A stretch of DNA of 64,000 nucleotides from a virus (IMGVR_UViG_3300010233_000008), one strand, 5' to 3'. Numbered from the stretch's first letter, positions 10,093 to 46,771 are shown. The notes: generated from the letters alone by a model not told the origin. Numbers and translations are program-made.

Positions 10093-11349
10093 ATGCCTAC
10101 AATTTCTGGCCTTTCGGTTACTTCCACTCGTTTGGCTAATACTGCATTTTCTGCCACATTTTTCCCTCGCGTGATGCGTTCGGTGTGGCCACGAATTTGT
10201 GGTACTACTAAGTCAAGTGCGTCGGTTGAGCCGTTCGCTTTCATCGGTGCTTCTCCGTTGCTTAAACTGTTTCAGGGTAATGTCCCCGCTCAAGCAGTTC
10301 CCAGCTTTACTCTTAACGTTCCAAATCCTATTTGGAAAAATATTGAATTGTGGCGTCGGTCACAGTTTGAATTGGATCAGACTCGCGTTCTCTCGAAACG
10401 AGTTGGAATGCTTGGTGTTAAGGTTGCCCAGACTTGGGATTACCTTTTAGCTAATGTTATTCTCAATGGCTCTACTGCTGGTAGCCAAACCTTCCTTTAT
10501 CCGGAAGATGGTAATACCTATACGATGACATTTGATAATCAGCCGATTTTCAGTGCATCACATACCGTTACTTCCTTTAATGCTATTGGTGGTGGGAATG
10601 CTCCTACTTATTCCAATATTATTCAGGGCCATTTGCCGGTAGGAACTAGCAGTTTATTCGCTCAGGATGTTGGCGTTACTGCTACACAGTTGCAGAATGA
10701 CGTTCAGGCTATTATTCAGCGAATTTCTACTTGGGTTGATGATAAGGGTGCATTGATTTATCCGGATTTTGATCCGGCTCGTCAATTGGTTCTTGTTGTT
10801 CCTCCTCAGTTGTTTGCTGGTGCTGAACTTGCATTTAGGGTTCAGGGTGGATTGATTGGTGGTAGTTATCAGTCTAGCGCTGGTTCTTCGACCAATATTG
10901 GTTATAAGATGGTAAAAGATGTCATTAATTGGAATCTGTTAACCGGATGTCCAAACTTGACTTCAATTAGCCCAACCGCCACTGTTGGCCCTACTAATGT
11001 CAATGAATATTATGCTTTCATTGATGGAGATTATGTTCGTCCGTTCTATTTCCAGAGATTCATGCCTGTTAGACAGGGTGAAACTATGCCATTGGGTGAA
11101 GACCCGGCGGCACAGGCTGCTCGGATTATAGATCAGGCCAATACTAGCGGATTGTCGGTTACTCCGGAAGCTGCGGAAGTTTATGCGGCTACTGAAATCG
11201 ACTCGAACCTTGGCGCTCTTGGCGCTAATGCTCAGTATGATGTTGTGGCAAAGGAACAATTCTTTGTCTCTGCCCGTACTCGCGGAATGATCTTCCCCGG
11301 TCCATGGATGACCGCACTAAAAGTGGACCCAACCGGCACGTCCACCTAA
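10093..11349 (+). CDS. major capsid protein (418 aa)
   Basis: largest gene after protease-scaffold in head module; followed by a strong intrinsic terminator (high expression unit); no transmembrane or low-complexity regions. Confidence 0.55.
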   Translation: MPTISGLSVTSTRLANTAFSATFFPRVMRSVWPRICGTTKSSASVEPFAFIGASPLLKLFQGNVPAQAVPSFTLNVPNPIWKNIELWRRSQFELDQTRVLSKRVGMLGVKVAQTWDYLLANVILNGSTAGSQTFLYPEDGNTYTMTFDNQPIFSASHTVTSFNAIGGGNAPTYSNIIQGHLPVGTSSLFAQDVGVTATQLQNDVQAIIQRISTWVDDKGALIYPDFDPARQLVLVVPPQLFAGAELAFRVQGGLIGGSYQSSAGSSTNIGYKMVKDVINWNLLTGCPNLTSISPTATVGPTNVNEYYAFIDGDYVRPFYFQRFMPVRQGETMPLGEDPAAQAARIIDQANTSGLSVTPEAAEVYAATEIDSNLGALGANAQYDVVAKEQFFVSARTRGMIFPGPWMTALKVDPTGTST

Positions 11350-11442: not shown

Positions 11443-11450
11443 ATCCGATA

Positions 11451-12218: not shown

Positions 12219-12416
12219 CAATTTAATACTTTTACAGAAAGGCATACCTTGCCTGCTTCATTTTTGTTCTGGATTCTGATGATTTTGGCTTTCGTTCTTT
12301 CCGGTGGCCCATTTTATGCTCCCGGAAACAAGTATTTTCCTTTTGGTTCTGGCCTTTGTTTTTTTGTGGCAGTTGCAATTTTGGGCTGGAAATTTTTGGG
12401 TAGTATTGTTCAATAA

Positions 12417-13253
12417 TTGGGCGCAATCCTAACTATAGCAAGTGCAACGCTTGCGATTGATGGCTTAACCCTAACTATCAATATGGCTGGGGTGTCTGGA
12501 AGTCTATCCCCATCATCTGGGGTTACGGGATTTACTGTATATAGTAGTGGAGTAGGAATAAATATTTCATCCGCTACTGCTGCTGGTAGTGCCGTAGTTT
12601 TAGTAGTCGATACTGTAATCCAAGCTAGTGCAATTTGTACTCTTTCATTAGCTTCCGGAACCGGCACTAATTTAGTAGATGATGCAGCAAATACCCCTAC
12701 CGGACAAAATGGATTTTTAGTTGTTAATAATTCTACGGCCAATCCTTATTGTTCAAAACAACAACTAATAATGTTATATGACGTTAGATCGGTTCTACAA
12801 CTATCTAACGACGTAAATTCTAGACAGGGAAATCAACCTAATATCCAATTTATATTGGATGTTCAGGCTGGAGAATTAGAGTCAGCTTTATATGGCAGAT
12901 ATGACTTACCTTCTGTTTGGGCAATGAATCCTATTCCCTTAATTCTTACTAAATATGTAGCTGCTACGGCGGCTGGTAGATTGTGGGGACGTAGATCAGA
13001 TAAACCTAAAGCTATTTCTGCTGATGAAGAGTGGGCAGAAAATTGGATTAAGGGAATAATGAATGGTTCTATGTCTATTCCCGGACTTGAACGTGAGGCT
13101 CAACCAGTTCTACAAGATTCTGACTTTATTAATGGTGTATCTCAATTTGATTGGGTATATGGAACCGCACCTTCCCCGACCGGACCATCTGGAAATCAAA
13201 CTGGTCCTCCATGCGTAAATCCTTCGACTCAATTTAATGGTTCTATTCCCTAG
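12417..13253 (+). CDS. DUF1320 (Mu gp36-like) head-tail connector protein with 118-aa low-complexity N-extension (278 aa; possible true start ATG 12771)
   Basis: residues ~119-175 (MLYDVRSVLQLSNDV...ELESALYGRYDLP) match DUF1320 N-terminal consensus; third-position A/T bias supports + strand over antisense ORF 12410..12742. Confidence 0.5.
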   Translation: MGAILTIASATLAIDGLTLTINMAGVSGSLSPSSGVTGFTVYSSGVGINISSATAAGSAVVLVVDTVIQASAICTLSLASGTGTNLVDDAANTPTGQNGFLVVNNSTANPYCSKQQLIMLYDVRSVLQLSNDVNSRQGNQPNIQFILDVQAGELESALYGRYDLPSVWAMNPIPLILTKYVAATAAGRLWGRRSDKPKAISADEEWAENWIKGIMNGSMSIPGLEREAQPVLQDSDFINGVSQFDWVYGTAPSPTGPSGNQTGPPCVNPSTQFNGSIP

Positions 13254-13278
13254 CCCGATTTTATAAGGAAAAATCCCG

Positions 13279-13938
13279 ATGGCAAAACATATCAACATTC
13301 CCAATACTAATTATTGGGTATTAGAAGGCGATAGCGCATTAACCAAGGCCGCATTAGAAAGTGGCAGATTAATTAATGAAACATCAATAGAAAATCTCGA
13401 TGAAGTTAAGGCGTTAAAATCGGGTGACGTTGTTTTGGATATAGGAGCTTTGGTTGGAGATACGGCTGAAATTTTTCTAAATCTTGGCTGTGAAGTTTAT
13501 GCTTTTGAGCCATATTTAGATGCGTTTGAATGTTTAGAACATAATTGTCCAAAAGCCAAAAATTATAATGTTGCGGTTGGAGATGGCAGGCAAATGGCTG
13601 CATTGGGAAAATTGGGCGAAGATGGCTCAAATTTTGGAACTAGGATGATGGAATTAAATCAGGGGCAACCATCATTTAGAATAGATGACTTAAATCTTGA
13701 CAAATGTGATTTTGCCAAAATTGATTGCGAGGGATGCGAGCCAATGGTTTTGGATGGAATGAAGAGAACACTGAAAAAGTTCAAGCCAAAATTATTGATA
13801 GAATGTTATGATACTCTATTAAAAAAACAAGGGTTTAGGCGTGAAGATATTTTGGTCCCACTTAAAGAATTGGGATATCAATATCGAGTAGCAATCGGAA
13901 TTGAAAGTAATGATCGTGTAGATTTACTTTTTTACTAA
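13279..13938 (+). CDS. FkbM-family SAM-dependent methyltransferase (219 aa)
   Basis: DIGALVGDTAEIF...GCEVYAFEP...NVAVGDG matches Methyltransf_21/FkbM signature. Confidence 0.65.
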   Translation: MAKHINIPNTNYWVLEGDSALTKAALESGRLINETSIENLDEVKALKSGDVVLDIGALVGDTAEIFLNLGCEVYAFEPYLDAFECLEHNCPKAKNYNVAVGDGRQMAALGKLGEDGSNFGTRMMELNQGQPSFRIDDLNLDKCDFAKIDCEGCEPMVLDGMKRTLKKFKPKLLIECYDTLLKKQGFRREDILVPLKELGYQYRVAIGIESNDRVDLLFY

Positions 13939-13939
13939 A

Positions 13940-14572
13940 ATGTCAGAAAAATTAAAATACGGTCCCGATTGTTTCGACTACAATTATTATAATTCCAATT
14001 TTTCGGAAGCAATGAGATATGATAGTATATCTCAACAACACGAGTTAAAATATAAATTTGATTTTATACAAGATTTTGGAATTACATATAATTCGATATT
14101 ATTTGTCGGGTGTGCGACCGGGAATGAACCAAGATATTTTAGGAATAATGGTAAAGATGCTCAGGGTTGCGATATAAGTAAATATGCAATCAGCCAAGCC
14201 GATTCATCCATTTCTTCTAATATAAGAGAATATGATGGCGAAAAAATATCTTGGCAAGAAGACAATTCTATAGACGTTGTTTGCGCCTTCGATGTTCTAA
14301 CTATTATACCAAAAGAACAAAGAGAAAAATTAATCTCTGAAATGATTAGGGTCGCGTCTAAATTGATAGTTATTAGAACTACATTAAAGGTTCCGGACGA
14401 CTTGACAGATAGTGAATTTGATGGTATAGATGGATACTTATTCAAGCTGGAAACTTTGGCATATTGGGATAATATTTTTACAGAAAATAAAAAGCTCTGG
14501 TTAAAAAAGGCAAAAATTTATTCCATCAAGCATAATCATCGTGAAGCTATAATCGGTTTTGAGAGAGAGTAA
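13940..14572 (+). CDS. class I SAM-dependent methyltransferase (210 aa)
   Basis: motif I ILFVGCATGNE, acidic motif II (QGCDIS) and motif III-like VVCAFDVL. Confidence 0.55.
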   Translation: MSEKLKYGPDCFDYNYYNSNFSEAMRYDSISQQHELKYKFDFIQDFGITYNSILFVGCATGNEPRYFRNNGKDAQGCDISKYAISQADSSISSNIREYDGEKISWQEDNSIDVVCAFDVLTIIPKEQREKLISEMIRVASKLIVIRTTLKVPDDLTDSEFDGIDGYLFKLETLAYWDNIFTENKKLWLKKAKIYSIKHNHREAIIGFERE

Positions 14573-16998
14573 TGGATAGGATCGCTATCATTCAGCTTTG
14601 CAGATTCGGAGATATAGTCTCAATTCTCCCGATTGCCAAATACTTATCAAAAGATAATGAAGTAACAATAATCTGTCATGAAGATTTTGCGGGAATACTT
14701 GATGCAGTTAGTTATGTAAAAGTACAAACATTAAGTACGCATCATAGGGATTTGGTTGGAGCGATTGCTAAGGCTAAATTAGAAGGATACGATCAAATAT
14801 TAGTTACTCAGAATATGGGTAACAATAATCGTATTCCTTATGAAACTGATAATTATCAATGTCAACAATGGGCAAGAGCCGGATTCCTAGATAAGTTTCA
14901 TGATCTACCTTTAATCTTCGATAAAAGAAATAAAGAATTTGAAAATAAAGCCCTAAAACTTTTCTTACCCAAAGAAGATGGACGCCCATTATTAGGCTAT
15001 TCCTTACATGGAATTAGTTCTATCTATCTAAGATGGAAGGAACAAGAAGATTGGATTAAAAAAACATTTGGCAAGACTCATAGATTGATGAATTTTGGCG
15101 ATATTTGTACGGGTCAAGTTCATAATCTTTTGGGATTAATTGAGAAGTGTGATAAGTTAATAAGTATCGACACACTTCATTTACACTTAGCTTATGCGAC
15201 GAATACTCCGACTATAGCTTTGGTTGACGATAATCCACAAAAAAGAAGTGAGCCAAGAAAACATTGGATAGAAAATGTAACCTATATTGAGAGTATTACC
15301 GATATAGGGCGAGAAAAAATAAGTAATGCAGTTTATGACAAACCAAAATTAGGACGATTTTCTAAATCTATTTTCGTTCCTAAACCCGAATCAGAAAATG
15401 ATAATCGGGTTGCCATAATTGAACTAGCTCGATATGGGGATATAGTTAATGTTTTACCTATAGCTTATGATCTCCATAAAAAAGGTAATGAAGTTCACTG
15501 GTTTGTTCATCCTAATTTTGCCGATATTTTAGAAGCCGTTTCTTATGTTAAGGTTCATAAATATGGAGGATCGGATAGGGATGTTCAGGGCACATCAGAT
15601 TATGCTAGAAAACTAGGATTTAAGCGAGTCTTAGAATTACAAGTTAATGGCAATAAATTACCTTCTCCGATTGAATGTGAAAATTTCATTACGCAAAGTT
15701 GGGCTAGAGGCGGATATTTAGATAAGTTTCACGAATTGCCTTTAGTGTTTGATGAAAGAAATATTGATTTTGAAAATGATGCGCAAAAGGGATTGCCATA
15801 TACCCACAAAAAGGAAACGATTGCCTATTCTCTTGAAAGTCATTCATCCCCAATGCCAGAAAATAAAAAATTTGAGCAATGGATAATCAAAGAATTTGGG
15901 GATAAATTTAATCTGTGGAATATTGGGATATTAAAGCTAAAAAAGCCTCAATATCTTATTGGTATGTTGGAAATTGCTGGTATATTGATTTCGGTTGATA
16001 CCCTTTCCCTTCACTTATCCTACGCAACTAATACTCCAGTAATCGCCCTCGCTCCCGACCATAACACTCAAAATTATAAAGAGCGTTATAAATGGTATCA
16101 AAGCGAACCAAGAAATAACTGGATTGAAAGAGTTACTTATACTGATGCCTTAGAGAAAAAAGGTCAAGACAAAATAATCGCTGCCGTAAATGGGAAAAGG
16201 GAATTTGGTAAACTTACTCGTTCATTTGAAAAGTTTAAGTTGGATCGAATAGTTCACGCCGTAGAATGGCATATCCCTCCCCAACAAGATGAAAGGCGTA
16301 GACTTTTATCCGCACATAAAACTTGGGAGTCAGCTAGAAATTCAGATAATTCTTGTAAATTAGTTATAGTTGATACGGATAAAGCTAAGCGAACAAGCAA
16401 AACAGAATTAGGAGATAATCGCACACTTCCTTTTCTCCATGATATAATTGAATCAGGAATAAAAGAGTGTCAGAAAAACGACATACTTCTTCTTACAAAT
16501 TCCGATATATGTTTAACTCCCGAAGTTTCTACAATAATTAGAGCTAAATTAGCTAAAGAACCATGCTGTTTTTCTCGAAGGATAGATGTTCAGAATGCGG
16601 ATATTCCTAAATCATTAAGAATGATTGCTGGAATAGAGCCTCATCCCGGAACCGATTTATTTGCTTTTAGAACTTCATGGTGGGAGAAAAGAAAGAAGGA
16701 TTTTCCTGATTTGCTTGCAGCTTGTGAGGGTTGGGATTTTGTATTTAGACATATAATGTTATGGGATAACCCGAAAGCAGAGATACAGCCACCAATTATT
16801 TATCATGAATTACACAGAGCATACTGGTATAGAGGAGACGTTATTAACTCAAACCCCGGACAAATCTACAATAGAGAACTCGGTAGAGAATGGGCAATCA
16901 AATACGGATATGATGACGCCCTTAATCCAGAATGCCAAGGTGGACTCTTCAAGCTCGACGGACATTTTAGTAGAAAAACTCCCACAAAAACTAGCTGA
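14572..16998 (+). CDS. three-domain glycosyltransferase: 2 x GT9 (heptosyltransferase-like) + C-terminal GT-A-like domain (808 aa)
   Basis: domain 1 IAIIQLCRFGDIVSILP ... SIDTLHLHLAYATNTPTIALV; domain 2 VAIIELARYGDIVNVLP ... SVDTLSLHLSYATNTPVIALA (GT9 N-terminal R.GD..P and C-terminal DTG.HLA.A...P motifs); third domain LVIVDTD...LLLTNSD. Confidence 0.7.
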   Translation: MDRIAIIQLCRFGDIVSILPIAKYLSKDNEVTIICHEDFAGILDAVSYVKVQTLSTHHRDLVGAIAKAKLEGYDQILVTQNMGNNNRIPYETDNYQCQQWARAGFLDKFHDLPLIFDKRNKEFENKALKLFLPKEDGRPLLGYSLHGISSIYLRWKEQEDWIKKTFGKTHRLMNFGDICTGQVHNLLGLIEKCDKLISIDTLHLHLAYATNTPTIALVDDNPQKRSEPRKHWIENVTYIESITDIGREKISNAVYDKPKLGRFSKSIFVPKPESENDNRVAIIELARYGDIVNVLPIAYDLHKKGNEVHWFVHPNFADILEAVSYVKVHKYGGSDRDVQGTSDYARKLGFKRVLELQVNGNKLPSPIECENFITQSWARGGYLDKFHELPLVFDERNIDFENDAQKGLPYTHKKETIAYSLESHSSPMPENKKFEQWIIKEFGDKFNLWNIGILKLKKPQYLIGMLEIAGILISVDTLSLHLSYATNTPVIALAPDHNTQNYKERYKWYQSEPRNNWIERVTYTDALEKKGQDKIIAAVNGKREFGKLTRSFEKFKLDRIVHAVEWHIPPQQDERRRLLSAHKTWESARNSDNSCKLVIVDTDKAKRTSKTELGDNRTLPFLHDIIESGIKECQKNDILLLTNSDICLTPEVSTIIRAKLAKEPCCFSRRIDVQNADIPKSLRMIAGIEPHPGTDLFAFRTSWWEKRKKDFPDLLAACEGWDFVFRHIMLWDNPKAEIQPPIIYHELHRAYWYRGDVINSNPGQIYNRELGREWAIKYGYDDALNPECQGGLFKLDGHFSRKTPTKTS

Positions 16999-17659
16999 AT
17001 CTCCATCTATAAATACTAACGGAGAATTCGCTGATGCTTTACGTCAAGTAATTAAGGAATACGATCCCAGACGACTTTTGGAAACTGGAACATTTGATGG
17101 GTTGGGATCAACCGCGATTATTTCAGAATCCATCAATCCTTTGGCTAGATTAATTACTATCGAATGTGATTTTAGTCTATACGCTAAAGCCGTAGCAAAC
17201 ACTAGAAAATTTGGACACAAAGTAGATTGTAGAAATGGATTATCTATTCCATCTTCAATGTTACCGACTAAAGATGAAATAGTTAAAATGCTAAGTGAAT
17301 GTCCAGATAATCTCAACAAGGATTATCCAGAAGTTCAAAATCTAGATGACTATGCCATTTATTATCTTGATGAAATGAAAAGAGATTTCAAAGAAGATGA
17401 TTTAATTAAGCAGATTGTCTCAAAAGTTTTTGGAGGAAAATTAGATTTTGCGATTTTAGATAGTGCCGGACATTTGGGGTGGTTGGAATTCGCTTGTCTA
17501 TTAAACTTCTTAGAATCTCCATGTATAATTGCTTTAGATGATGTGAATCATATTAAGCATTACAAGAGTATGGAAGCCATAAGAAGCTCAAAGGTATTTA
17601 CTATTTTAAATGAGGGGGACGAGAGATATGGGTGGGCTATTGCTAGATATGATCCTTAA
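16910..17659 (+). CDS. TylF/CmcI-like sugar O-methyltransferase (start uncertain; ORF track 16805)
   Basis: LETGTFDGLGSTAI resembles TylF/macrocin O-MTase Gly-rich SAM motif (ECGV.RGGS); ORF overlaps end of GT gene in another frame; ATG 16910 is first in-frame Met. Confidence 0.5.
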   Translation: MMTPLIQNAKVDSSSSTDILVEKLPQKLAESPSINTNGEFADALRQVIKEYDPRRLLETGTFDGLGSTAIISESINPLARLITIECDFSLYAKAVANTRKFGHKVDCRNGLSIPSSMLPTKDEIVKMLSECPDNLNKDYPEVQNLDDYAIYYLDEMKRDFKEDDLIKQIVSKVFGGKLDFAILDSAGHLGWLEFACLLNFLESPCIIALDDVNHIKHYKSMEAIRSSKVFTILNEGDERYGWAIARYDP

Positions 17660-17904: not shown

Positions 17905-17906
17905 AA

Positions 17907-18098: not shown

Positions 18099-18101
18099 AA
18101 A

Positions 18102-18341: not shown

Positions 18342-18343
18342 AA

Positions 18344-24484: not shown

Positions 24485-24847
24485 GTGAAGAAAAAGAATT
24501 ATTATATTAAAAAGGGTTATGTTAAGAATTGCACCGATCCCAAGATAGAGTTATATGAATCTGGATTTAGGGCAATGTGTTTTCATGTCGCCTATAATCA
24601 TTTTTATCATTTAGTTGCTGACAATACTTTAAGGTTTGCATATGCTTTATGCCATTCTTCACTTCCCATTAAAGATAGGGAGACCGTTGAGGCGTGGTAT
24701 AAATGGAGCAAGGGAAAAACCATCAAAGAAATGATGAATCACGGTCACGAAATCCCTAAATCACTAAAACCTATCGTTAATTCTTATTTTTCAGCTATTA
24801 AGAAAAGAGCTAAAGAGAATAAAGAAGATGTGAATTATTTGTTATGA
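24485..24847 (+). CDS. hypothetical protein (120 aa, GTG start per ORF track)
   Basis: ORF preceding GT-sulfotransferase gene with 4-nt overlap. Confidence 0.4.
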   Translation: MKKKNYYIKKGYVKNCTDPKIELYESGFRAMCFHVAYNHFYHLVADNTLRFAYALCHSSLPIKDRETVEAWYKWSKGKTIKEMMNHGHEIPKSLKPIVNSYFSAIKKRAKENKEDVNYLL

Positions 24848-26190
24848 ACCCGACAATTTGCTTCGTTACTACTTGCAAAAATCGCGCAAATCATATTAAG
24901 GAATGCTTGCCCGCGAATCTGGCAGACAATACCGATCCAAATCATAAATTCATCCTTTTAGATTATAATAGTCAAGATGATCTTATTGATTATCTTAAAT
25001 CTAATCATCAAAAAGATATAAATTCAGGGAGATTAGTAGTTTATAGTTTTAAGAGTCACGGACCATTTAGAATGGCTCATGCCAAAAATATGGCACACCG
25101 TTTAGGTATTCTAGAGGGCGGCAACATATTAGTTAATCTTGATGCTGATAATTTTACTGGTAAGGAATTTTCGACTTATATTCAGGAAAAATTTAAGCAA
25201 GATAATATATTCTTATGGGCAAAAAGGATTATAGGTCAAGCTCATACTAGAGGAACCTCTGGGCGTATCGGGGTATCTTCTAAATCCTTTATTCTGGCTG
25301 GAGGATACGATGAAAAGTATAATACTTGGTCTCCTGACGACAAAGACTTCAACGCTAGATTATGTCGCTTAGATTTTGTTCCTATTGAGATTGATCCTAA
25401 ATTCTTAAAAGCTAAAGTTCATAACGACAATATTAGATTTTCAGAGTATAAACATATTGATCTTGACGAACAAGAAGAAGAATCATTAAGAATCGGAGAT
25501 TCCGATCATACCATAGCTAATTTTGGCAGGATCGGATGTGGTACGGTTTATAAGAATTTCTCTAATGAACCAATAAATATAGACCCAATTCCAACTAGAA
25601 TATTTGGGATAGGGATGCACAAGACAGCGACCACTTCCCTAAATAAAGCATTTAAGATTTTAGGTTATCATTCCGCACATTGGAAATCTCCGCAATGGGC
25701 TAGAAATATTTGGGATGAAATACATAAATTTGGTAAATCCAGAACATTAGAAAAATATTATGCGCTATGCGATTTACCTATCACCTTACTCTATCAATCA
25801 TTGGATATAGCTTATCCCGGAAGTAAATTCATTCTTACTATCAGGGATGAAAATCAATGGCTGGAAAGCGTTAAGAATCATTGGGATTATGATCTAAATA
25901 TTTATAGAGAGAGTTGGGATAATGATGCCTTTACGCATAGAGTTCACAGTGAATTATATGGTAGGAAAATGTTCGATGTGGAAATTTTTATCAAGAGATT
26001 TCGTAGGCATAATGATGAAGTAAGAAATTATTTTAAAAATCGTCCACAAGATTTACTTGTTTTGGATATAGATAAAAAAGATAAGTGGGGAAAACTTTGT
26101 CCATTTTTGAATGTGGGAATACTGAATATTTCTTATCCGGAAGAGTTCAATACGGATAAAAGGGTAAAATTTTTAGCAGAAAATATTTAA
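24844..26190 (+). CDS. fusion protein: GT-A glycosyltransferase (DXD) + sulfotransferase domain (448 aa)
   Basis: N-half ICFVTTCKNR...LVNLDADNF (GT-A/GT2-like DXD); C-half GMHKTATTSL (5'-PSB PKSGTT-like, catalytic Lys) and ILTIRDENQWLESV (3'-PB RD...S motif) of PAPS sulfotransferases. Confidence 0.55.
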   Translation: MNPTICFVTTCKNRANHIKECLPANLADNTDPNHKFILLDYNSQDDLIDYLKSNHQKDINSGRLVVYSFKSHGPFRMAHAKNMAHRLGILEGGNILVNLDADNFTGKEFSTYIQEKFKQDNIFLWAKRIIGQAHTRGTSGRIGVSSKSFILAGGYDEKYNTWSPDDKDFNARLCRLDFVPIEIDPKFLKAKVHNDNIRFSEYKHIDLDEQEEESLRIGDSDHTIANFGRIGCGTVYKNFSNEPINIDPIPTRIFGIGMHKTATTSLNKAFKILGYHSAHWKSPQWARNIWDEIHKFGKSRTLEKYYALCDLPITLLYQSLDIAYPGSKFILTIRDENQWLESVKNHWDYDLNIYRESWDNDAFTHRVHSELYGRKMFDVEIFIKRFRRHNDEVRNYFKNRPQDLLVLDIDKKDKWGKLCPFLNVGILNISYPEEFNTDKRVKFLAENI

Positions 26191-40124: not shown

Positions 40125-41776
40125 GCCAATTAGTATTAAATACTTGTACTTTGTCCGATGAAGACGGGCATAAGTATAACGTCTATGACCCTCCGAAGGG
40201 TGGAAGACCTACTAATGTATTTACCATGCACACCGGCGCTTCGCGTCCGGGCATCGGTAGATATTTAATGACTAAATCTGATTTTGAACAATTAGATGAA
40301 ACAGGGACATTAACTATAAATGGTCCTCCCGGTCCCGGAGTTTCTATTCCAGTGGTCGTCATGGCGGCTGTACCTTATGCTACTGGACCCTCGGCTGATT
40401 CTAGTGCATTAGGCACTAATATGATGGAGGTAATAGTTGCTGATATGAGAGAGCAACTAACTACTCCAATGATTTCCTGTGCTTTTAATGTTCAGCAACA
40501 AGGATTCCCATATACAACGCCCGATACCCCAATATTTTACACACAAACTATTAACGGATCAATAGCTTGGAGTTGGAATGATGTATTAGATAACCTAACT
40601 AACTCTCCAGCCTTCCCTCAAAATATAATATTTCCTAATCCCGATCCTTCATCTTGGCAACCCAGAAACCTAATTTATGATGGATGTTCATGTGCTAAGA
40701 TTATAGATGATATTGGCGAACAAGTTTATGTGGTAACTGGATTCGACTATACTCAAGATAATTTTCTAGACGGTATTCAATATTATCCTCCGGGAAATTC
40801 TCAAGATGGGAATACGGATGATTCTGGAAATACGAATATATTAAATAACGCCAAGAATTATGTAATAGCCGGAAGCGATCCCAATAACCCTACTAATTCT
40901 AATGAAAATGTTATAGGTACGGATTCATGGTTGAGATTTAAGACTAGATTCCCGGCTATAGTTAGAGTTGAGTTTAAGATTTATGATGCTACCAATCCAT
41001 TTCCTATTCCTACCTCTTTACCTCAGCCCCCTCCTGTTTGGACGGCTGGCACACCTTCATTCCAAAGAACCTATAGTAAAGACATAATCAATAACTCTGG
41101 TAGTGCCAATGATAATTATGTTCTACCGTTAAATTATGGAAATTACATAGCGATAATCTCTGGAAATACGATCTATAATCAGGCTGAATTAGATACGGTA
41201 GCTTTGGATATAGGTAATAGATTTCTAAGTAATCTTCAATTGCCTTTAGCTGAAAAAGTATTCGCTGGAATTTGGCCATTAATTCCTGATGGATTAGTTA
41301 GAGGAATTCAATGGGTGAGTAATAGGATGGGGGCGACAACTAGGGTTAGATTTAATAATGAAAAAGATTTTGACCCAGTACACGAAAATAAACGAGTAGT
41401 GGATGCTATATCTAATCAATTAATAGTGGGGTTAGGAGTCACTAACTCGTCGGTAGGTCCGAGCGGAAGTAGGCAGATCTGGACGCCAACTACTCATGTT
41501 TTGGTTAAGTTCAATACGAATACATCTTTGACTTCACTTTATACTGGATATTTTATGTTTGGGAGTGGGTCTGCTTCTGGTATTCCTCCTATTGGTTTCA
41601 GTCAAGGTCCGGAGTGTTATATTTGTAATTTGAATGAAATCATTTTGAATAATGAATGGCCCACCAATGCCGGTGAATTCGGCTGGGGGGATATTGTAAA
41701 TCCAGCATATATTGGCCCAAATGGGACCATGCCATTAGTTTATGTAGACCATCCGGGCGCTGGTCCTTGTGATTAA
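40121..41776 (+). CDS. tail protein (551 aa)
   Basis: ATGA start/stop overlap; position after tape-measure-like gene. Confidence 0.5.
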   Translation: MSQLVLNTCTLSDEDGHKYNVYDPPKGGRPTNVFTMHTGASRPGIGRYLMTKSDFEQLDETGTLTINGPPGPGVSIPVVVMAAVPYATGPSADSSALGTNMMEVIVADMREQLTTPMISCAFNVQQQGFPYTTPDTPIFYTQTINGSIAWSWNDVLDNLTNSPAFPQNIIFPNPDPSSWQPRNLIYDGCSCAKIIDDIGEQVYVVTGFDYTQDNFLDGIQYYPPGNSQDGNTDDSGNTNILNNAKNYVIAGSDPNNPTNSNENVIGTDSWLRFKTRFPAIVRVEFKIYDATNPFPIPTSLPQPPPVWTAGTPSFQRTYSKDIINNSGSANDNYVLPLNYGNYIAIISGNTIYNQAELDTVALDIGNRFLSNLQLPLAEKVFAGIWPLIPDGLVRGIQWVSNRMGATTRVRFNNEKDFDPVHENKRVVDAISNQLIVGLGVTNSSVGPSGSRQIWTPTTHVLVKFNTNTSLTSLYTGYFMFGSGSASGIPPIGFSQGPECYICNLNEIILNNEWPTNAGEFGWGDIVNPAYIGPNGTMPLVYVDHPGAGPCD

Positions 41777-44744
41777 AGCTGGACAATTTATTAGACAGGA
41801 TGGCGGCGGCTTAGTTAGGGGAGCTAAGGGCGGATTTGTTCGGGCAAAATATGATAATGATACAGAGGCTTGTCCGGGATGCACTTGCGGATGCTGTCCC
41901 ATATGTCTTAATCAACAATATATAATAACTTACGCTTTTGATAATGGAAGTGGTCAGGTTCAGCAACAAGCAATAACAAATCAGGGGTTTGTTCCCGGTG
42001 ATTTAGCTTTTCCATTAGATACCCAACAAATATGCTATATATTTGGTGCCGAAACGTGCGGTACGCCATTTCCTACTCTACCTCAATTGGTTTATGGAAA
42101 ATTCGGAACAAGTGCAATAACTTTTCCCGTAACCTCTACCAGCACAACCACTACTACATCTACCAGCACAAATTCTACTTCTAGTTCGACCTCAACAGAT
42201 ACTTTTACATCTTTTTCAACCACATCTTCATTTGAAGATAATTATTGCGAAACATTAAATAGTGATTTTTGTACTTGGGCCGTATATTTGGTGAAATGGG
42301 TATGGCAACAGACCACAGATATTGAGGGAGACCATACCGGAGTTTACGTTTATGCTGTTTACATATTAAATTATGATGGAAGTACAAGTACATCTTCATC
42401 TTCTACTTCTGGATTTTCTCCAGAATGCGGATTAAGCCCTGTCGGAACGTATGAATTATATTGTACCGGAATTTATACCGATTCGTTTATTCCTCCACCA
42501 ATATATTCTGGTTTGTTTGGATCGTCCAGTACAACCACAACAACCAGCAGTTCGACAAATACTTTTTCTGTAACTGGTACGAGTTCGTTCACAAGTGAAA
42601 GCTCTTCTACTTCCACTTATACCACAAGTTCAACAACAACATCTACCACTGGTACAACGACTTCAACTAGTACGACAACATATTCCACGACTTCCGCCAC
42701 TACATCAACTTCCACAAGCTCAGATACTTTTACCTCCACCAGTACAACTACAACCTATAGTACAAGTCGATCAACCTCTAGTTCTTCTGCTTGGTTAAAT
42801 TTTGAGAATGCTGGCGATGCTTTTTATAACCCAATTGCTCCAGACGGTGGACCTTGGCTTTTAGGATTAAATCCGTATTCTGGTGGAATAGGTGATTACC
42901 TTACTCTTAAGGATTTCAATAAATGCTTCTCTCCTACCGTAACAATATCTCCCGGTGGTGGATTTATAAATTATGGAACGGTAACATCTACTTCGACTTC
43001 TTCGGTTTATTTATATAGTAGCAGTACCTCTACTCAAACATTTACCACTGCATCCGTTAGTTCAACTTCGATTACTTCAACGTCTACGATTGGCACTTCA
43101 ACTACAACAATTGGTACATCCACTTCCACCAGCACAACGATATCTACCTCTACTTCGATATCAATATTTACATCAACGTCTAGCTCGACAACAAGCGACA
43201 CATTTACTTTTACATCAACAAATTACGATCTCTCATTTAGTTCCTCAACGGTACAGGGATTTTCATCGTACTCCAGTGCGTCGGCATGTATTGGTTGCAA
43301 TGATTGCTGTACCGGATATCAGATAAAAATAAGTAGCGGATTGTCTGGTAGTCCGTTTTATGGAAATGTCACTCAAATTATATGTACGGAACCAAACGTG
43401 AGTTCCGGATCAACAATTGGGTGTTTGCTGGGCGATCCATATATACAAGATTTTTATGAAAGTTTTTTAAATCCAACAGTAGACAATACTACTTTTGCTC
43501 AAGGATGCTTTTGGGAGGCATGTCCGAGTTTGGTTGGATCAAGTCCACCGCAAACAGTAGAAGCGTATTTATGGCTTGCCTGCGATACTTGGTATATAGC
43601 AGCGAGTGATGCAACGCAGCCCGGAATTGGTGGGGTTTATTGGCTGTTTTCTGCCCCTTATGATGGCGATTGCCCACCAGAAAATTTTTCATTAGTTCAA
43701 TATGGACCTCACAATTATAATGCCTTCCACGGTTATGGATCATTTTCTACCTATGGAAGTTCAACTTCTACCTCTACCTCAACATACACTTCAACATCAT
43801 TAACTTTTGGAACTAGCACTTCAACGTCTAGTTCCACTTTTACAAATACTTATACTTCCACAACTACTTCAACCACTTCAACTTTTACTTTTACAAGTTC
43901 TAGCACAGGAACATTCAGTTCGACATCTAGTTCATATTATACTTCTAGTTCATATTCATATATATCATTTACCTCTAGCTCAACCTCAATATCTACTTCT
44001 CTAGAAGGATCATATGCTACGGACGATGGAGCTACCGCTACCTTAGAATGTATAAATTGTTGTGGTACATGTCCAAGCAGTACATCAAGTAAAACTTCCT
44101 GTACCTCATTTACCTCGGTATCTTTTTCCACCTCAACTACAACTTCTACAAGCTCATCATTTAGTGTTTCCGGTACGTCTACTGCTACAATAACTTCCAC
44201 CTCAACTAAATCAGAAACATTTATATCTATATCTACTTCGGTAACTTGTCCTAGTACAAATACCTCTACATCTAGTTCTCCTCCTACGTCATCTACTTCT
44301 ACATCGCCATGCACGGCTTGCATTAACTGTTCTTCCGATCCAGCTACTAATGATTGTGGTTCATTGTCCGATACTTATGTAGCTTCATTTAATATAACAG
44401 TTAGAAATCCATTAACGGGATTATTCCAGAATTATCCGGTCAGTGTAACTATTACTTATACAAATGATGGGACTTGCTCTTGGGTCGGATCATCCGCCCC
44501 TATTTTTCCCAATACTCCGGCATTTGATGTAAGCGTATTTTTAACTAACCAAGGCGACCCAACTTCTCCGTGTGTATTTGAAATGGATGTTGAAGCCAAC
44601 AATGATTTCGATGATGGATGTAACGTGCAAACACTCCCCTCAAACCCCCTTTGTGCCGTATTTTGCACTACTCCGGTAAATAATTATAACCAAAATACTG
44701 CCTGTACTCCCGGCTCAAGTATCTCTGGCGCGATGGTTTCTTAA
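41769..44744 (+). CDS. Ser/Thr-rich mucin-like tail-associated protein with Cys-rich modules (991 aa, GTG start)
   Basis: extreme poly-S/T tracts (TSTSTTTTTSTSTNSTSSSTSTDTFTSFSTTSS...) interrupted by Cys/Trp-containing globular segments; all overlapping antisense/alternate-frame ORFs are low-complexity artefacts. Confidence 0.6.
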   Translation: MIKAGQFIRQDGGGLVRGAKGGFVRAKYDNDTEACPGCTCGCCPICLNQQYIITYAFDNGSGQVQQQAITNQGFVPGDLAFPLDTQQICYIFGAETCGTPFPTLPQLVYGKFGTSAITFPVTSTSTTTTTSTSTNSTSSSTSTDTFTSFSTTSSFEDNYCETLNSDFCTWAVYLVKWVWQQTTDIEGDHTGVYVYAVYILNYDGSTSTSSSSTSGFSPECGLSPVGTYELYCTGIYTDSFIPPPIYSGLFGSSSTTTTTSSSTNTFSVTGTSSFTSESSSTSTYTTSSTTTSTTGTTTSTSTTTYSTTSATTSTSTSSDTFTSTSTTTTYSTSRSTSSSSAWLNFENAGDAFYNPIAPDGGPWLLGLNPYSGGIGDYLTLKDFNKCFSPTVTISPGGGFINYGTVTSTSTSSVYLYSSSTSTQTFTTASVSSTSITSTSTIGTSTTTIGTSTSTSTTISTSTSISIFTSTSSSTTSDTFTFTSTNYDLSFSSSTVQGFSSYSSASACIGCNDCCTGYQIKISSGLSGSPFYGNVTQIICTEPNVSSGSTIGCLLGDPYIQDFYESFLNPTVDNTTFAQGCFWEACPSLVGSSPPQTVEAYLWLACDTWYIAASDATQPGIGGVYWLFSAPYDGDCPPENFSLVQYGPHNYNAFHGYGSFSTYGSSTSTSTSTYTSTSLTFGTSTSTSSSTFTNTYTSTTTSTTSTFTFTSSSTGTFSSTSSSYYTSSSYSYISFTSSSTSISTSLEGSYATDDGATATLECINCCGTCPSSTSSKTSCTSFTSVSFSTSTTTSTSSSFSVSGTSTATITSTSTKSETFISISTSVTCPSTNTSTSSSPPTSSTSTSPCTACINCSSDPATNDCGSLSDTYVASFNITVRNPLTGLFQNYPVSVTITYTNDGTCSWVGSSAPIFPNTPAFDVSVFLTNQGDPTSPCVFEMDVEANNDFDDGCNVQTLPSNPLCAVFCTTPVNNYNQNTACTPGSSISGAMVS

Positions 44745-44753: not shown

Positions 44754-46577
44754 ATGAAAATAAATTGCAAAAACTTTTCTGAATGTAATCGGAACGATGG
44801 TGGATGTTGCGCCATTTCCGATAAATCAGGTAGCAAATTACCTTCTTATGGATATTGCCAAATCTGTAAAGTTAGAGACCCAATTAATTCAGATATCAAA
44901 TCCCCACTTTTAGAAGAAGTAAAAAAGATAGAACCAAAGCCCATGCCAAAATGCGGAAAATGCCAACGCAAGGAATCTTCCCGACAAACTCAAAAAAAAA
45001 CTGAACCTTATGAAGTAGTTATTAAATGCCATCAATCTCCCGGCGATATTACTTTACTTCATGGAGCAATTAGAGAAGTACAAAAAGCATATCCCGGAAA
45101 ATTTAGATTTTCCCCAGATACTCATTTTAACGATCTATTTTATAATTCACCTTGGGTAATTAATAGAGAACATCTTAAAGACCCAATAACTATTGAATCT
45201 GGTCAATGTTGGAGTTGGGCAAACCAAAGATCGGATCATTTAGTTCAGGAATTTACCAGATCATTAATTGGACAATTAAATGATAAATTGAAATTAGATT
45301 TGAAAGTTCCGTATATGACGGAATTTAGGGGGTGTTTGATATTAAGTGAAGAGGAAAAGAATAGGGATGTAACGGATATAATTGGGGAATATGATAGCTA
45401 TTTTTTGATAGATGCCGGATGGAAAAGTAACGATTACGATGTAAAGCGTGCCCCAACAGAGACTTATCAACAAGTGGTTGATGGGTTATTGGGGAAAGTA
45501 AAATTTGTACAAATGGGCCGAAATGATCCAAATGCTCCGGACAGACACCCCCCACTTAAAAACGTAATAAATGCAATAGGATTAACTGAAAACCGTCGAG
45601 ATTTTCTTAGATTGGTTTATAGATCATCCGGGGTGATTACTCCGATTAGTTGGCCACTTCATGCAAGCGCTGCCATACCGATGCACTCTAATCCAAACAA
45701 GTTAAGACCATGTGTGGTTCTTGCTGGTGGTAGAGAACCAGTTTCAATGATCCAATATCCGGGGCATAGCGTTTTAAGCATGGTGGGAAAATTAGACTGC
45801 TGCCTTAACGGTGGCTGCTTCAAAACATCCATAGGTCATAAGCCTAATGATATGAAGGGAGTTTCAGATGAGAGATGCTTAAGGCCGGAAAATGGAATAG
45901 CTAAGTGCATGAGGATGATAACCGCACCGCAAATAATTTCCGCCGTTGAAAGCTATTTAGTTCCTCCAGAAAAGCCAAAAATCTGTATAGCAAGCATTGC
46001 AACAAATGACATGAGGGAGTTGAGGGATTTAACTTTCCCAAATAAAAAGCAATATGCAGAAAAACACAATTATGGGTTTGTCGGATGGGAAGATGTTTTC
46101 CACGAAAAAGATAAGCAAGATCGCCCCGCTTCGTGGAGCAAACTACCATTAATCCTTCAATTATTTTCTGAATATAATTGGATATTTTGGTCCGATGCTG
46201 ACTCTGTAATTACAAATATGGATAAGAAGATCGAAGATTTTATTGATAACGATTACGACTTGATAATTGCAGCAGATAGGAACGGGCGAAACTGCGGACA
46301 GTTTTTAATAAAGTCAAGTCAGCAAAGTTGGGATTTTCTACGTCGGGCATGGGAACAAACAGAATTTATAAATGACGGGTGCTGGGAGCAAAGTGCGATA
46401 GGGAAATTGTTAAGAGAAAATCCAAATCAAATTAGAGAAAAAATTGTACCTCAAAATTGGTTCAATTCTTATCCTGACATTTGGAATAAGAATGATTTTT
46501 TACTTCATGCTCCAAGGGATGATCGTTGGAATCGAATTGATCCTCTAAAAAATGCTTTGAATGGAGAGAAAATATGA
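44754..46577 (+). CDS. Zn-ribbon + GT9 heptosyltransferase-like + GT-A (DXD, GT34-like) glycosyltransferase (607 aa)
   Basis: N-term Cys clusters (CKNFSECN..CC, CQICK, KCGKCQ); VVIKCHQSPGDITLLHGAIREVQKAYP and GVITPISWPLHASAAIPM (GT9 motifs); C-domain SWSKLPLIL...WIFWSDADSVITN (GMA12/MNN10-like DXD). Confidence 0.6.
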   Translation: MKINCKNFSECNRNDGGCCAISDKSGSKLPSYGYCQICKVRDPINSDIKSPLLEEVKKIEPKPMPKCGKCQRKESSRQTQKKTEPYEVVIKCHQSPGDITLLHGAIREVQKAYPGKFRFSPDTHFNDLFYNSPWVINREHLKDPITIESGQCWSWANQRSDHLVQEFTRSLIGQLNDKLKLDLKVPYMTEFRGCLILSEEEKNRDVTDIIGEYDSYFLIDAGWKSNDYDVKRAPTETYQQVVDGLLGKVKFVQMGRNDPNAPDRHPPLKNVINAIGLTENRRDFLRLVYRSSGVITPISWPLHASAAIPMHSNPNKLRPCVVLAGGREPVSMIQYPGHSVLSMVGKLDCCLNGGCFKTSIGHKPNDMKGVSDERCLRPENGIAKCMRMITAPQIISAVESYLVPPEKPKICIASIATNDMRELRDLTFPNKKQYAEKHNYGFVGWEDVFHEKDKQDRPASWSKLPLILQLFSEYNWIFWSDADSVITNMDKKIEDFIDNDYDLIIAADRNGRNCGQFLIKSSQQSWDFLRRAWEQTEFINDGCWEQSAIGKLLRENPNQIREKIVPQNWFNSYPDIWNKNDFLLHAPRDDRWNRIDPLKNALNGEKI

Positions 46578-46771
46578 CTACCTTTACCTCAACTTCTTAC
46601 GCAAATTCCCACAGCGAATCCATTCAAGAGTCATATTTTAATCCTTGGACTAATTTCCAAACCTATCAAGAGCCAAACAAAGATAAATCAATTTGCACTT
46701 GCTCTAAACAGGAATTAATGGTTGCGGGATGTAATTGTGGGCATATTAAAAGATATTCGGAGAAAAGGTGA
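46574..46771 (+). CDS. hypothetical Cys-containing protein (65 aa)
   Basis: ATGA-coupled small ORF. Confidence 0.35.
   Translation: MTTFTSTSYANSHSESIQESYFNPWTNFQTYQEPNKDKSICTCSKQELMVAGCNCGHIKRYSEKR

What the first reader, a model, noticed from the sequence alone, without database searches (positions are those of the whole stretch)
13279..17659. Glycan-tailoring cassette (3 methyltransferases + multi-domain GT9/GT-A glycosyltransferase) embedded in the structural gene block
Four consecutive rightward genes encode an FkbM-type MTase, a class I SAM MTase, a protein with two tandem GT9 heptosyltransferase-family domains plus a GT-A domain, and a TylF-like sugar O-MTase. GT9 enzymes use ADP-heptose. 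The same family includes the bacterial autotransporter heptosyltransferases (Aah, TibC) that O-glycosylate Ser residues of adhesins. Sitting between the head-tail connector gene and tail genes, the cassette could synthesise a methylated heptose-containing glycan on a virion protein, or modify host LPS or receptor. Either would be unusual in a phage.
Basis: partly seen in the sequence, partly recalled or inferred. Interest (0 to 1): 0.8.

Follow-up and report, generated by a model that had tools for sequence, protein, structure and literature searches.

The report
Phage head-operon glycan-building gene cassette
An uncultured phage carries, right after its head genes, an enzyme with three sugar-transferring domains plus three methyltransferases, which most likely put a methylated sugar coat on the phage's own particle, and related phages carry a differently composed sugar-gene set at the same spot.

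Summary
Four tightly packed rightward genes follow the head-tail adaptor gene:
- an FkbM methyltransferase
- a Methyltransf_11 methyltransferase
- an 808-aa glycosyltransferase
- a COMT-like O-methyltransferase (TylF itself was not recovered)

The usual form is one GT9-like module plus the GT-A domain. That form defines a large family not covered by Pfam or PHROGs: 700 cluster representatives at E<=1e-30 and 63 IMG/VR loci. I found none in GenBank phages or in 185,579 cellular genomes.

In this phage's head-protein lineage, all nine distinct phages sampled carry a glycan island after the head/adaptor genes, with differing enzyme content. The window also encodes a GT2-sulfotransferase, a GT34 protein, a fourth methyltransferase and a 991-aa protein that is 40% Ser/Thr.

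Best reading: late-expressed, cytoplasmic glycosylation of a virion protein, similar to chlorovirus capsid glycosylation. The acceptor and the sugar donor are not established, and heptose is not supported specifically.

The parts
13279..13938 (+). FkbM-family SAM-dependent methyltransferase (219 aa)
   Evidence: PF05050 E=5e-14, TIGR01444 E=6e-21, phrog_8156 E=1e-22. Homologs lie next to M-X in L001-L005, L004, L007/L068, L010, L035, L039, L044, L045, L048, L053 and L062.
13940..14572 (+). Class I SAM methyltransferase, Methyltransf_11 type (210 aa)
   Evidence: PF08241 E=1.4e-10, PF13649 E=9e-10; weak hit to the pseudaminic-acid-associated methylase TIGR03587, E=3e-7, below cut-off. Homologs lie directly beside M-X in L070, L074 and L009.
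14572..16998 (+). 808-aa glycosyltransferase with three catalytic domains (M1-M2-X)
   Evidence: The M-M-X architecture occurs in only 3 of 163 family members. No PHROG hit.
14572..15387 (+). M1: first GT9-type GT-B module (residues 1-272)
15400..16215 (+). M2: second GT9-type GT-B module (residues 277-548)
   Evidence: 45% identical to M1, E=3e-72. It keeps all family-invariant residues: G289, D290, D476, H481.
16216..16995 (+). X: GT-A-fold glycosyltransferase domain with no Pfam family (residues 549-808)
16940..17659 (+). COMT / O-methyltransferase-family-3-like SAM methyltransferase (239 aa). The start is uncertain (16910, 16913 or 16940); the gene overlaps the end of the GT gene.
   Evidence: Profile hit to 7CVU O-methyltransferase family 3 at E=3.8e-6, followed by COMT structures. 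Invariant E-T-G-x3-G-x-G-S-T, LDSAGH and LDD-x2-H-x-K-H motifs. 41% identical homolog in the L001 cassette. Fused to M-X or X in P0055, P0065 and P0103.
12417..13253 (+). Head-tail adaptor (Mu Gp36 type); its gene ends 25 nt before the cassette
   Evidence: PF07030 E=5.5e-9, phrog_195. Same order in L001-L005, L004, L069, L070, L074 and L077.
10093..11349 (+). Major head protein (Mu gpT type) with a conserved C-terminal tail P-x-G-x-S/T-x; candidate acceptor (inferred)
   Evidence: PF10124, phrog_371. C-terminal motif seen in 31 homologs. Strong terminator-like hairpin at 11372-11403.
24844..26190 (+). GT2 + sulfotransferase fusion (448 aa); further glycan enzyme outside the flagged interval
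   Evidence: PF17784 Sulfotransfer_4 E=8e-30; PF10111 and PF00535 N-terminal.
41769..44744 (+). 991-aa protein, 40% Ser+Thr: Cys-rich modules joined by long poly-Ser/Thr tracts; candidate O-glycosylation acceptor (inferred)
   Evidence: Only one weak two-copy DNA tandem repeat in the gene. All Ser and Thr codons are used. No Pfam hit.
44754..46577 (+). 607-aa protein with a C-terminal GT34 / Nucleotid_trans (GT-A) domain
   Evidence: PF05637 E=2e-20. 38% identical (E=2e-32) to the GT34 part of a 786-aa L076 protein that also carries Methyltransf_24, an M module and a partial X.
46768..47484 (+). Fourth methyltransferase (Methyltransf_24, 238 aa)
   Evidence: PF13578 E=4e-6.

Best explanation
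The cassette is a phage-encoded, soluble, late-expressed glycan assembly line.

The 808-aa enzyme adds up to three sugars, using two GT9-type GT-B modules and one metal-dependent-type GT-A domain. The three SAM methyltransferases (FkbM, Methyltransf_11, COMT-like) methylate those sugars. The product is most likely attached in the cytoplasm to a protein of the phage's own particle, before or during assembly.

Candidate acceptors:
- the conserved Ser/Thr-containing C-terminal tail of the major head protein
- the small virion protein encoded beside it
- the 991-aa mucin-like Ser/Thr protein encoded near the second glycan cluster

The island's enzyme content differs between related phages at a fixed position. 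That is what would be expected of a surface glycan under diversifying selection.

Shown: gene order, domain folds, conserved catalytic-type residues, family distribution, fusion events, synteny.
Inferred: that the domains are active, that the methyl groups go onto sugars, that the acceptor is a virion protein, and which protein it is. The sugar donors are unknown.
For: Enzyme identity.

Both GT9-like modules and domain X keep every family-invariant residue.

Co-transcription with the head operon is suggested by the 25, 1, -1 and -59 nt spacings and by the absence of a terminator between the adaptor gene and the cassette.

The position after the head/adaptor genes is conserved in relatives whose GT is 35-52% identical: L001-L005, L004, L069, L070, L074.

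All nine distinct phages of the head-protein lineage for which context was retrieved have a glycan island there, with varying content:
- L075 has no M or X. It has Glyco_trans_1_2, TylF, a further MTase, DegT and a dehydratase instead.
- L076 has GT1, MT24, GT2 and a GT34-MT24-M fusion.
- L077 has M-GH130, faint GT25 and GT11 hits, FkbM and MT24.

Fusions tie the parts together: the ORF4-type MTase is fused to M-X or X in P0055, P0065 and P0103, and M is fused to GT34 and MT24 in L076.

No membrane segment or signal peptide was found in any cassette protein.

Domain X is on 63 IMG/VR loci. No relative was found in 185,579 cellular genomes with the close-subfamily patterns.

In distant viral loci M-X lies next to giant DarB-like proteins or to discoidin-domain tail proteins.

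The same genome encodes a 40% Ser/Thr protein next to GT34 and MT24 genes.

Precedent: the soluble multi-domain GTs and MTases A111/114R, A064R and A061L glycosylate the chlorovirus capsid protein (PMC9614988), and mycobacteriophages carry glycans on the C-termini of capsid and tail-tube subunits (as cited in PMC12619734).
Against: - No direct evidence for any acceptor. The whole argument is by position, distribution and analogy.
- The head-protein C-terminal motif is present in all 31 complete homologs in the family, so there is no with/without contrast to test it.
- Ser/Thr-hyper-rich proteins were not found within 10 kb of M-X in 73 other loci. The test could not have caught a gene 25 kb away, as in the window.
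- The nearest solved structures of the GT9-like module are mainly LPS-core enzymes, not protein glycosyltransferases.
- In a distant clade M-X sits at the boundary with replication genes rather than beside head genes.
- Host, lifestyle and expression timing are unknown.
- The genome-contig scan used only two peptide patterns from the close subfamily, so distant cellular relatives could have been missed.
Confidence: 0.5

Rival explanations
1. The enzymes remodel a host envelope glycan (LPS core, O-antigen, capsule or a teichoic-acid-like polymer) during infection. This could destroy or mask the receptor, so that progeny are not lost on debris and superinfection is blocked.
For: The closest solved structures of the GT9-like module include the LPS heptosyltransferases WaaF and WaaC, and the profile hits WaaC. 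Domain X resembles GT2-type enzymes of wall and capsule polymers: SpsA, TarP, TarS, K4CP. FkbM-type and other sugar MTases are common in cell-surface polysaccharide loci (my own knowledge). Variable island content would also fit tracking of variable host glycans.
Confidence: 0.25
2. The glycosyltransferases hypermodify the phage DNA by adding sugars to modified bases, protecting it from restriction.
For: Phage GT-A and GT-B enzymes that glycosylate 5hmC are widespread, and some sit near packaging genes (10.1101/2023.12.21.572611). The cassette's neighbour in many loci is a giant DarB-like or polyvalent anti-restriction-type protein.
Against: Among all window ORFs of 200 aa or more scanned against Pfam, none hit a thymidylate-synthase-type, 5mYOX/TET-type or DNA C5-methyltransferase family. 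The three MTases are FkbM, Methyltransf_11 and COMT-like types, not DNA MTases. The GT-B modules are GT9-type rather than T4 beta-GT-like. The cited study itself regards GTs that lack a neighbouring base-modification enzyme as less likely to be DNA modifiers.
Confidence: 0.07
3. The target is the giant injected 'polyvalent' protein encoded next to the cassette, not a surface protein of the particle. This is a variant of the virion-protein idea, with an internal cargo protein as acceptor.
For: The neighbour shared between the window clade and the distant clade is a giant protein. In the window clade it is an InPase polyvalent protein: 1329 aa in the window and 2086-4212 aa in L001-L004. In 16 distant loci it is a protein of about 1850 aa with a weak DarB-like hit. 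The window's 1329-aa protein has about 1100 residues rich in Pro, Gln, Ser and Lys.
Against: L070 has M-X after the head genes with no InPase domain in the 8.7 kb of sequence that follows it. The 1329-aa protein is only 13% Ser+Thr. No precedent for glycosylated phage cargo proteins turned up in the searches run.
Confidence: 0.1

Closest known systems
Chlorovirus PBCV-1 capsid glycosylation enzymes A111/114R (three GT domains, 860 aa), A064R (GT-GT-methyltransferase) and A061L (separate methyltransferase)
   Different: No sequence relationship was detected. The host is eukaryotic and the chlorovirus genes are expressed early. The chlorovirus glycans are N-linked to the capsid protein and have been verified chemically. 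Here the acceptor, the linkage and the sugars are all unknown, and two of the three GT domains are GT9-type GT-B, which A064R and A111/114R are not reported to contain.
Mycobacteriophage virion glycosylation (Freeman et al. 2023, Cell Host Microbe; known to me only through citing papers)
   Same: Phage-encoded glycosyltransferases that decorate the phage's own particle. The glycans are reported at the C-termini of capsid and tail-tube subunits. In the window lineage the head protein ends in a conserved P-x-G-x-S/T-x tail.
   Different: The host group is different and the window phage has no GenBank relative. The enzymes differ: here a GT9-like module fused to a GT-A domain that no Pfam family covers. 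The primary paper was not available, so gene-level comparison was not possible. No mass-spectrometric evidence exists here.
LPS heptosyltransferases WaaC/WaaF and other GT9 enzymes (3TOV)
   Different: The modules are about 272 aa against 320-350 aa. They score 29.5 bits against cut-offs of 185 or more for the heptosyltransferase models. They are fused to a GT-A domain, encoded by viruses and placed in a head operon. ADP-heptose use is untested.
Bacterial autotransporter heptosyltransferases (TibC, Aah)
   Different: TibC is not closer than the LPS enzymes. The modules lack any CxxC pair, whereas TibC has an iron-binding Cys motif and forms a dodecamer (my own knowledge of the 4RAP study). There is no autotransporter substrate here.
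Phage serotype-conversion (Gtr-type) and DNA-glycosylating glycosyltransferases
   Same: Phage-encoded glycosyltransferases.
   Different: Gtr systems use membrane proteins and are carried by prophages (my own knowledge). The cassette proteins are soluble, and the GT-A domain was not found in cellular genomes. DNA-modifying GTs cluster with base-modification enzymes, and none was found in the window.

Membership tests
GT9 (Pfam PF01075 / CAZy GT9) | GT-B fold of the GT9 sub-type | tested here: met
GT9 (Pfam PF01075 / CAZy GT9) | Score above the curated sequence-model thresholds | tested here: inconclusive
   The whole protein scores 30.7 bits against the Pfam cut-off of 22. The separate modules score 20.3 and 13.7 bits, both below 22. 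Only 53 of 247 profile positions match.
GT9 (Pfam PF01075 / CAZy GT9) | Conserved acidic residues equivalent to WaaC D13 and D261 | tested here: met
   Profile alignment to 2GT1 and 2H1F. D14/D200 in M1 and D290/D476 in M2 are invariant or nearly invariant across 36 modules. The catalytic role of D13 and D261 is from my own knowledge.
LPS heptosyltransferase I/II/III (NCBIfam equivalogs) | Score above the equivalog cut-off | tested here: not met
   TIGR02193 gives 29.5 bits against a cut-off of 185.3; TIGR02201 gives 16.4 against 170.2.
LPS heptosyltransferase I/II/III (NCBIfam equivalogs) | ADP-L-glycero-D-manno-heptose as donor | not testable with these tools
No heptose-pathway gene appeared among the Pfam-annotated neighbours.
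Bacterial autotransporter heptosyltransferases (TibC/Aah) | Closer to TibC than to the LPS heptosyltransferases | tested here: not met
Bacterial autotransporter heptosyltransferases (TibC/Aah) | Iron-binding Cys cluster | tested here: not met
   The 808-aa protein has no CxxC pair. The definition of the motif is from my own knowledge.
GT-A fold glycosyltransferases (GT2-like) | GT-A nucleotide-sugar-binding fold | tested here: met
GT-A fold glycosyltransferases (GT2-like) | DxD metal-binding motif | tested here: inconclusive
   An invariant N643-x-D645 sits after a beta-strand where DxD is expected, with invariant H745 and H748 downstream. No structural superposition of the motif was done.
GT-A fold glycosyltransferases (GT2-like) | Membership of an existing Pfam GT family | tested here: not met
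   None of the 26 members reaches a Pfam GT family; the best is a single member at E=0.056 to PF00535. A profile search against PDB sequences finds nothing relevant.
FkbM methyltransferases (PF05050 / TIGR01444) | Score above the curated cut-offs | tested here: met
   53.2 bits against 22.7, and 75.5 bits against 37.7.
TylF / macrocin O-methyltransferase (PF05711) | Detectable match to the TylF model | tested here: not met
   ORF4 and its relatives have no TylF hit. A true TylF/Methyltransf_24 gene does occur in the alternative island of L075.
Cation-dependent O-methyltransferase family 3 (COMT-like) | SAM-binding Rossmann half with motif I | tested here: met
   The profile gives E=3.8e-6 to 7CVU, followed by COMT structures. 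The E-T-G-x3-G-x-G-S-T motif is invariant.
Cation-dependent O-methyltransferase family 3 (COMT-like) | Metal-binding acidic residues in the C-terminal half | not tested
   D174 (LDSAGH) and D200-D201 (LDD) are invariant and resemble COMT's D141 and D169/N170 as I recall them. The alignments stop at residue 105, and no model was made.
Phage/virus virion-glycosylation systems | Glycan chemically demonstrated on a virion protein | not testable with these tools
   This needs particles or co-expression, plus mass spectrometry.
Phage/virus virion-glycosylation systems | Virus-encoded soluble GTs linked to structural genes | tested here: met
Serotype-converting Gtr-type systems | Membrane flippase/GT components and prophage carriage | tested here: not met
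   No hydrophobic segment typical of membrane helices. No relative was found in 185,579 cellular genomes.
DNA sugar-hypermodification clusters | Adjacent 5mYOX, thymidylate-synthase-type or C5-MTase genes | tested here: not met
   None was found among the window ORFs of 200 aa or more that were scanned. About 8 kb of the 72-kb source contig lies outside the window and was not seen.

The most novel reading that the evidence does not exclude
An uncultured phage lineage autonomously makes strain-variable, methylated and possibly sulfated glycans on its own particle. The acceptors would be the head protein's C-terminal tail and/or a 991-aa mucin-like protein. The genes form an O-antigen-like hypervariable island anchored in the head operon. 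Its core is a previously undescribed virus-restricted bifunctional enzyme family: a GT9-like GT-B module fused to a new GT-A domain, with at least 700 clusters at 50% identity. This would be the tailed-phage counterpart of chlorovirus capsid glycosylation.
Probability: 0.4. Interest if true: 0.8.

Novelty: new variant of a known kind. Interest (0 to 1): 0.62.

Why it matters
Glycosylated phage particles have been shown chemically only in a few actinobacteriophages. The best-understood virus-encoded capsid glycosylation belongs to giant algal viruses.

This locus suggests that an unrelated, uncultured phage lineage invests heavily in such chemistry. One genome carries at least five glycosyltransferase domains, four methyltransferases and a sulfotransferase. 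The genes sit in a variable island fixed to the head operon.

It also defines a large, virus-associated two-domain glycosyltransferase family that Pfam and PHROGs do not cover.

If the product is a virion glycan, it bears on how phages evade recognition or adhere to surfaces. It would also give glycoengineers a set of soluble, compact, multi-domain transferases.

The claim can be tested directly by co-expression and mass spectrometry, without culturing the phage.

Tried and rejected
- DNA and protein searches of the cassette, the 808-aa protein and the head protein against 50,697 GenBank phage records found nothing. No cultured relative or host could be named.
- Context look-ups for the window's own protein and its 86% relative were not on record.
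- Pattern-based locus searches failed with the GT9-module alignment and with the whole protein. A tighter alignment ran and found nothing.
- The head-protein alignment recovered only three IMG/VR loci, so a with/without-cassette comparison on viral contigs was not possible.
- I tested whether the head protein's C-terminal tail tracks with the cassette. The tail is present in all 31 complete homologs in the family and every sampled relative has a glycan island, so there is no contrast.
- I tested whether Ser/Thr-hyper-rich proteins accompany M-X. None lies within 10 kb in 73 loci, but the window's own copy is 25 kb away, so the test is uninformative.
- I suspected a toxin-antitoxin pair at 11752-12218, between the head and adaptor genes. 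Pfam gave no support and I dropped it.
- I considered a frameshift fusion of the GT and ORF4, because X ends at 16968 and the ORF4 match starts at 16970 in the +1 frame. I rejected it: the GT's C-terminus and stop are conserved in the 86% relative and in other homologs.
- The primary mycobacteriophage glycosylation paper was not held.
- BFVD has only generic GT-A viral proteins as matches to domain X, with TM 0.4-0.58.

Full report
**1. What is at the coordinates**

Four rightward ORFs occupy 13279-17659:
- 13279-13938 (219 aa)
- 13940-14572 (210 aa)
- 14572-16998 (808 aa)
- 16805-17659

The fourth overlaps the end of the third. Its likely start is ATG 16910/16913 or GTG 16940, and the public gene call of 239 aa matches 16940. 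The genes are separated by 25, 1, -1 and -59 nt. A strong terminator-like hairpin follows the major head gene at 11372-11403, but none lies between the adaptor gene and the cassette. So the cassette reads as the tail end of the rightward head operon: portal 1650-3233, Mu F-like 5670-6491, a 527-aa protein, a 138-aa virion protein, gpT-type major head protein 10093-11349, and Gp36-type adaptor 12417-13253. Downstream are five small leftward genes and then a 1329-aa protein with an N-terminal InPase domain. No tail gene was recognised next to the cassette.

**2. The two clear methyltransferases**

ORF1 is an FkbM-family enzyme (PF05050 E=5e-14; TIGR01444 E=6e-21). ORF2 is a class I SAM enzyme of the Methyltransf_11 type (E=1.4e-10).

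**3. The 808-aa protein**

It has three parts.

Residues 1-272 and 277-548 are a tandem duplication, 45% identical, E=3e-72. Pfam recognises only a 53-residue piece of GT9, and the heptosyltransferase models of NCBIfam score 29.5 bits against cut-offs of 185 or more. A profile of 36 such modules hits E. coli WaaC at E=5e-5. The invariant G-D aligns to WaaC G12-D13, and the D-T-x3-H-L motif aligns to WaaC D261/H266.

**4. The fourth gene**

No Pfam hit. Its small family (six sequences) hits family-3/COMT-type O-methyltransferases at E=3.8e-6 over the SAM-binding half. It has invariant acidic and histidine motifs in the C-terminal half. 'TylF-like' is therefore only approximately right. It is a COMT-superfamily methyltransferase, and TylF itself was not recovered.

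**5. The family behind the big protein**

The common form is one GT9-like module followed by X. Among 163 X-containing proteins, the main architectures are:

| Architecture | Count |
|---|---|
| M-X | 62 |
| extra N-terminal domain + M-X | 31 |
| X alone | 34 |
| other N-terminal region + X | 14 |
| M-M-X (the window type) | 3 |

The remaining proteins have rarer arrangements. Other members replace X by GH130-like, radical-SAM or GT2 domains.

Domain X has 2217, 1143 and 700 representatives at E<=1e-3, 1e-10 and 1e-30 in a library of 1.84 billion cluster representatives. It occurs on 63 IMG/VR viral loci, about 55 of which have M directly upstream. It has no PHROG and no GenBank phage match. 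No relative was found in 185,579 cellular genome representatives using the close-subfamily patterns. BFVD holds only generic GT-A matches.

Three representatives fuse an ORF4-type methyltransferase to M-X or X (P0055, P0065, P0103). In P0103, residues 511-720 are 36% identical to the window's ORF4, E=1e-39. That ties the methyltransferase functionally to the glycosyltransferase.

**6. Synteny**

In relatives whose GT is 35-52% identical, the order head protein, adaptor, M-X, methyltransferases is kept (L001-L005, L004, L069, L070, L074).

Searching with the head protein gave 32 homologs, many on the same contigs as the GT homologs. Counting the window, context was retrieved for nine distinct phages of this lineage. 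Every one has a glycan island after the head/adaptor genes, but the content differs:
- L075 lacks M and X. It has Glyco_trans_1_2, a true TylF/Methyltransf_24, another methyltransferase, a DegT aminotransferase and a dehydratase/epimerase.
- L076 has GT1, MT24, GT2 and a 786-aa GT34-MT24-M-partial-X fusion.
- L077 has M-GH130, faint GT25 and GT11 hits, FkbM and MT24.

This is a fixed locus with replaceable glycan genes.

In a distant clade of viral contigs, M-X follows a protein of about 1850 aa with a weak DarB-like hit. In another it follows a VWA-discoidin tail protein. FkbM, Methyltransf_24, Methyltransf_11 or GT2 genes lie alongside.

**7. More glycan genes in the same window**

Outside the flagged interval the window encodes:
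- a GT2-sulfotransferase fusion (24844-26190)
- a 607-aa protein ending in a GT34-type domain (44754-46577)
- a Methyltransf_24 gene (46768-47484)

The GT34 domain is 38% identical (E=2e-32) to the one fused to an M module in L076, so the two clusters in the window are linked.

Immediately upstream of the GT34 gene lies a 991-aa ORF (41769-44744) that is 40% Ser+Thr. Its Cys-rich modules are joined by tracts such as TTTSTTGTTTSTSTTTYSTTSATTSTSTSS. Tandem Repeats Finder reports only one weak two-copy repeat in the gene, and all Ser and Thr codons are used. So the composition is maintained at the protein level. It has no Pfam match. Composition of this kind is typical of heavily O-glycosylated proteins (my own knowledge), which makes it a candidate acceptor.

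**8. Mechanism proposed**

All cassette proteins lack membrane segments and signal peptides. I therefore propose a cytoplasmic pathway. The three GT domains add sugars in sequence, and the three methyltransferases methylate them. The product sits on a virion protein made at the same time.

Candidate acceptors are the head protein's conserved C-terminal P-x-G-x-S/T-x tail, the 138-aa virion protein, and the 991-aa Ser/Thr protein.

The closest functional analogue is the chlorovirus system. There the soluble A111/114R (three GT domains), A064R (GT-GT-MTase) and A061L (MTase) build a methylated capsid glycan (PMC9614988). Mycobacteriophages are reported to carry glycans on the C-termini of capsid and tail-tube subunits (as cited in PMC12619734).

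Folds, motifs, fusions, distribution and synteny are shown. Activity, donors, the acceptor and the linkage are inferred.

**9. Rivals**

*Host envelope glycan remodelling.* This is favoured by the LPS-enzyme resemblance. It is disfavoured by the head-operon position, by the absence of membrane components and by the absence of cellular or prophage relatives.

*DNA sugar hypermodification.* This is a known phage use of GT-A and GT-B enzymes. However, no base-modification gene was found among the window's larger ORFs. The methyltransferases are not DNA types, and the GT-B modules are GT9-type.

*Glycosylation of the neighbouring giant polyvalent protein.* This cannot be excluded.

**10. Verdict**

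The virion-glycan idea is the best fit. 'Heptose' and the specific TibC/Aah link are not supported, and the phenomenon is not unprecedented.

What is new:
- the enzyme family (a GT9-like module fused to a GT-A domain that no Pfam family covers, associated with viruses)
- the hypervariable glycan island anchored in the head operon of an uncultured lineage
- the coexistence with a mucin-like protein and a sulfotransferase fusion

Noticed in passing
window 41769-44744 (+): A 991-aa ORF that is 40% Ser+Thr. Cys-rich modules are joined by long poly-Ser/Thr tracts. Tandem Repeats Finder reports only one weak two-copy DNA repeat in the gene. There is no Pfam match. It lies directly upstream of a GT34-domain gene.
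   Followed up: partly
window 24844-26190 (+): A single 448-aa protein fusing an N-terminal GT2 domain to a Sulfotransfer_4 domain (E=8e-30). This hints that the phage's glycan might be sulfated.
   Followed up: no
window 44754-46577 and 46768-47484 (+); L076 18795-21155: A GT34-type domain protein sits next to a Methyltransf_24 gene. In relative L076, GT34, Methyltransf_24, a GT9-like module and a partial domain X are fused in one 786-aa protein inside the head-operon island.
   Followed up: yes
window 19360-23349 (+); L001-L004, L069: A 1329-aa protein with an N-terminal InPase domain, followed by about 1100 residues rich in Pro, Gln, Ser and Lys. Its counterparts in relatives are 2086-4212 aa polyvalent-type proteins with AAA_34, Helicase_C_4 or topoisomerase IB domains. 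They always lie beside the glycan island.
   Followed up: partly
window 10093-11349, C-terminus; 31 homologs: The major head protein ends in a conserved tail: V/I-D-P-T/S-G-x-S-x. Pro is at position -6 and Gly at -4 in 28 of 31 homologs, and Ser or Thr at -2 in 27 of 31.
   Followed up: partly
window 12417-12740 (+): The Gp36-type adaptor carries an N-terminal extension of about 105 residues rich in Ser, Thr, Gly and Ala. Only L001-type relatives share it; L004, L069 and L070 lack it.
   Followed up: no
L075 17293-21227: A relative of the same head-protein lineage has no GT9-like module or domain X. At the same locus it carries Glyco_trans_1_2, TylF/Methyltransf_24, another MTase, a DegT aminotransferase and an NDP-sugar dehydratase/epimerase. 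This looks like cassette replacement.
   Followed up: partly
window 27782-27853, 27921-27994 (+), 48963-49046 (-): Three tRNA genes: Thr(UGU), Gly(UCC) and Leu(UAA). The ACA codon read by tRNA-Thr(UGU) makes up 33% of Thr codons in the Ser/Thr-rich gene, against 22% in other late genes.
   Followed up: no
window 11372-11403 (+): A 12-bp-stem terminator-like hairpin directly after the major head gene. A promoter-like site at 11415-11442 and three small ORFs of unknown function lie before the adaptor gene.
   Followed up: no
window 51538-52422 (-): An SPFH/Band 7 family protein (E=1.6e-13) among the leftward genes.
   Followed up: no
whole window: No DNA match for the 9000-20000 region, and no protein match for the GT or the major head protein, in 50,697 GenBank phage records. 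The lineage appears to be entirely uncultured.
   Followed up: yes
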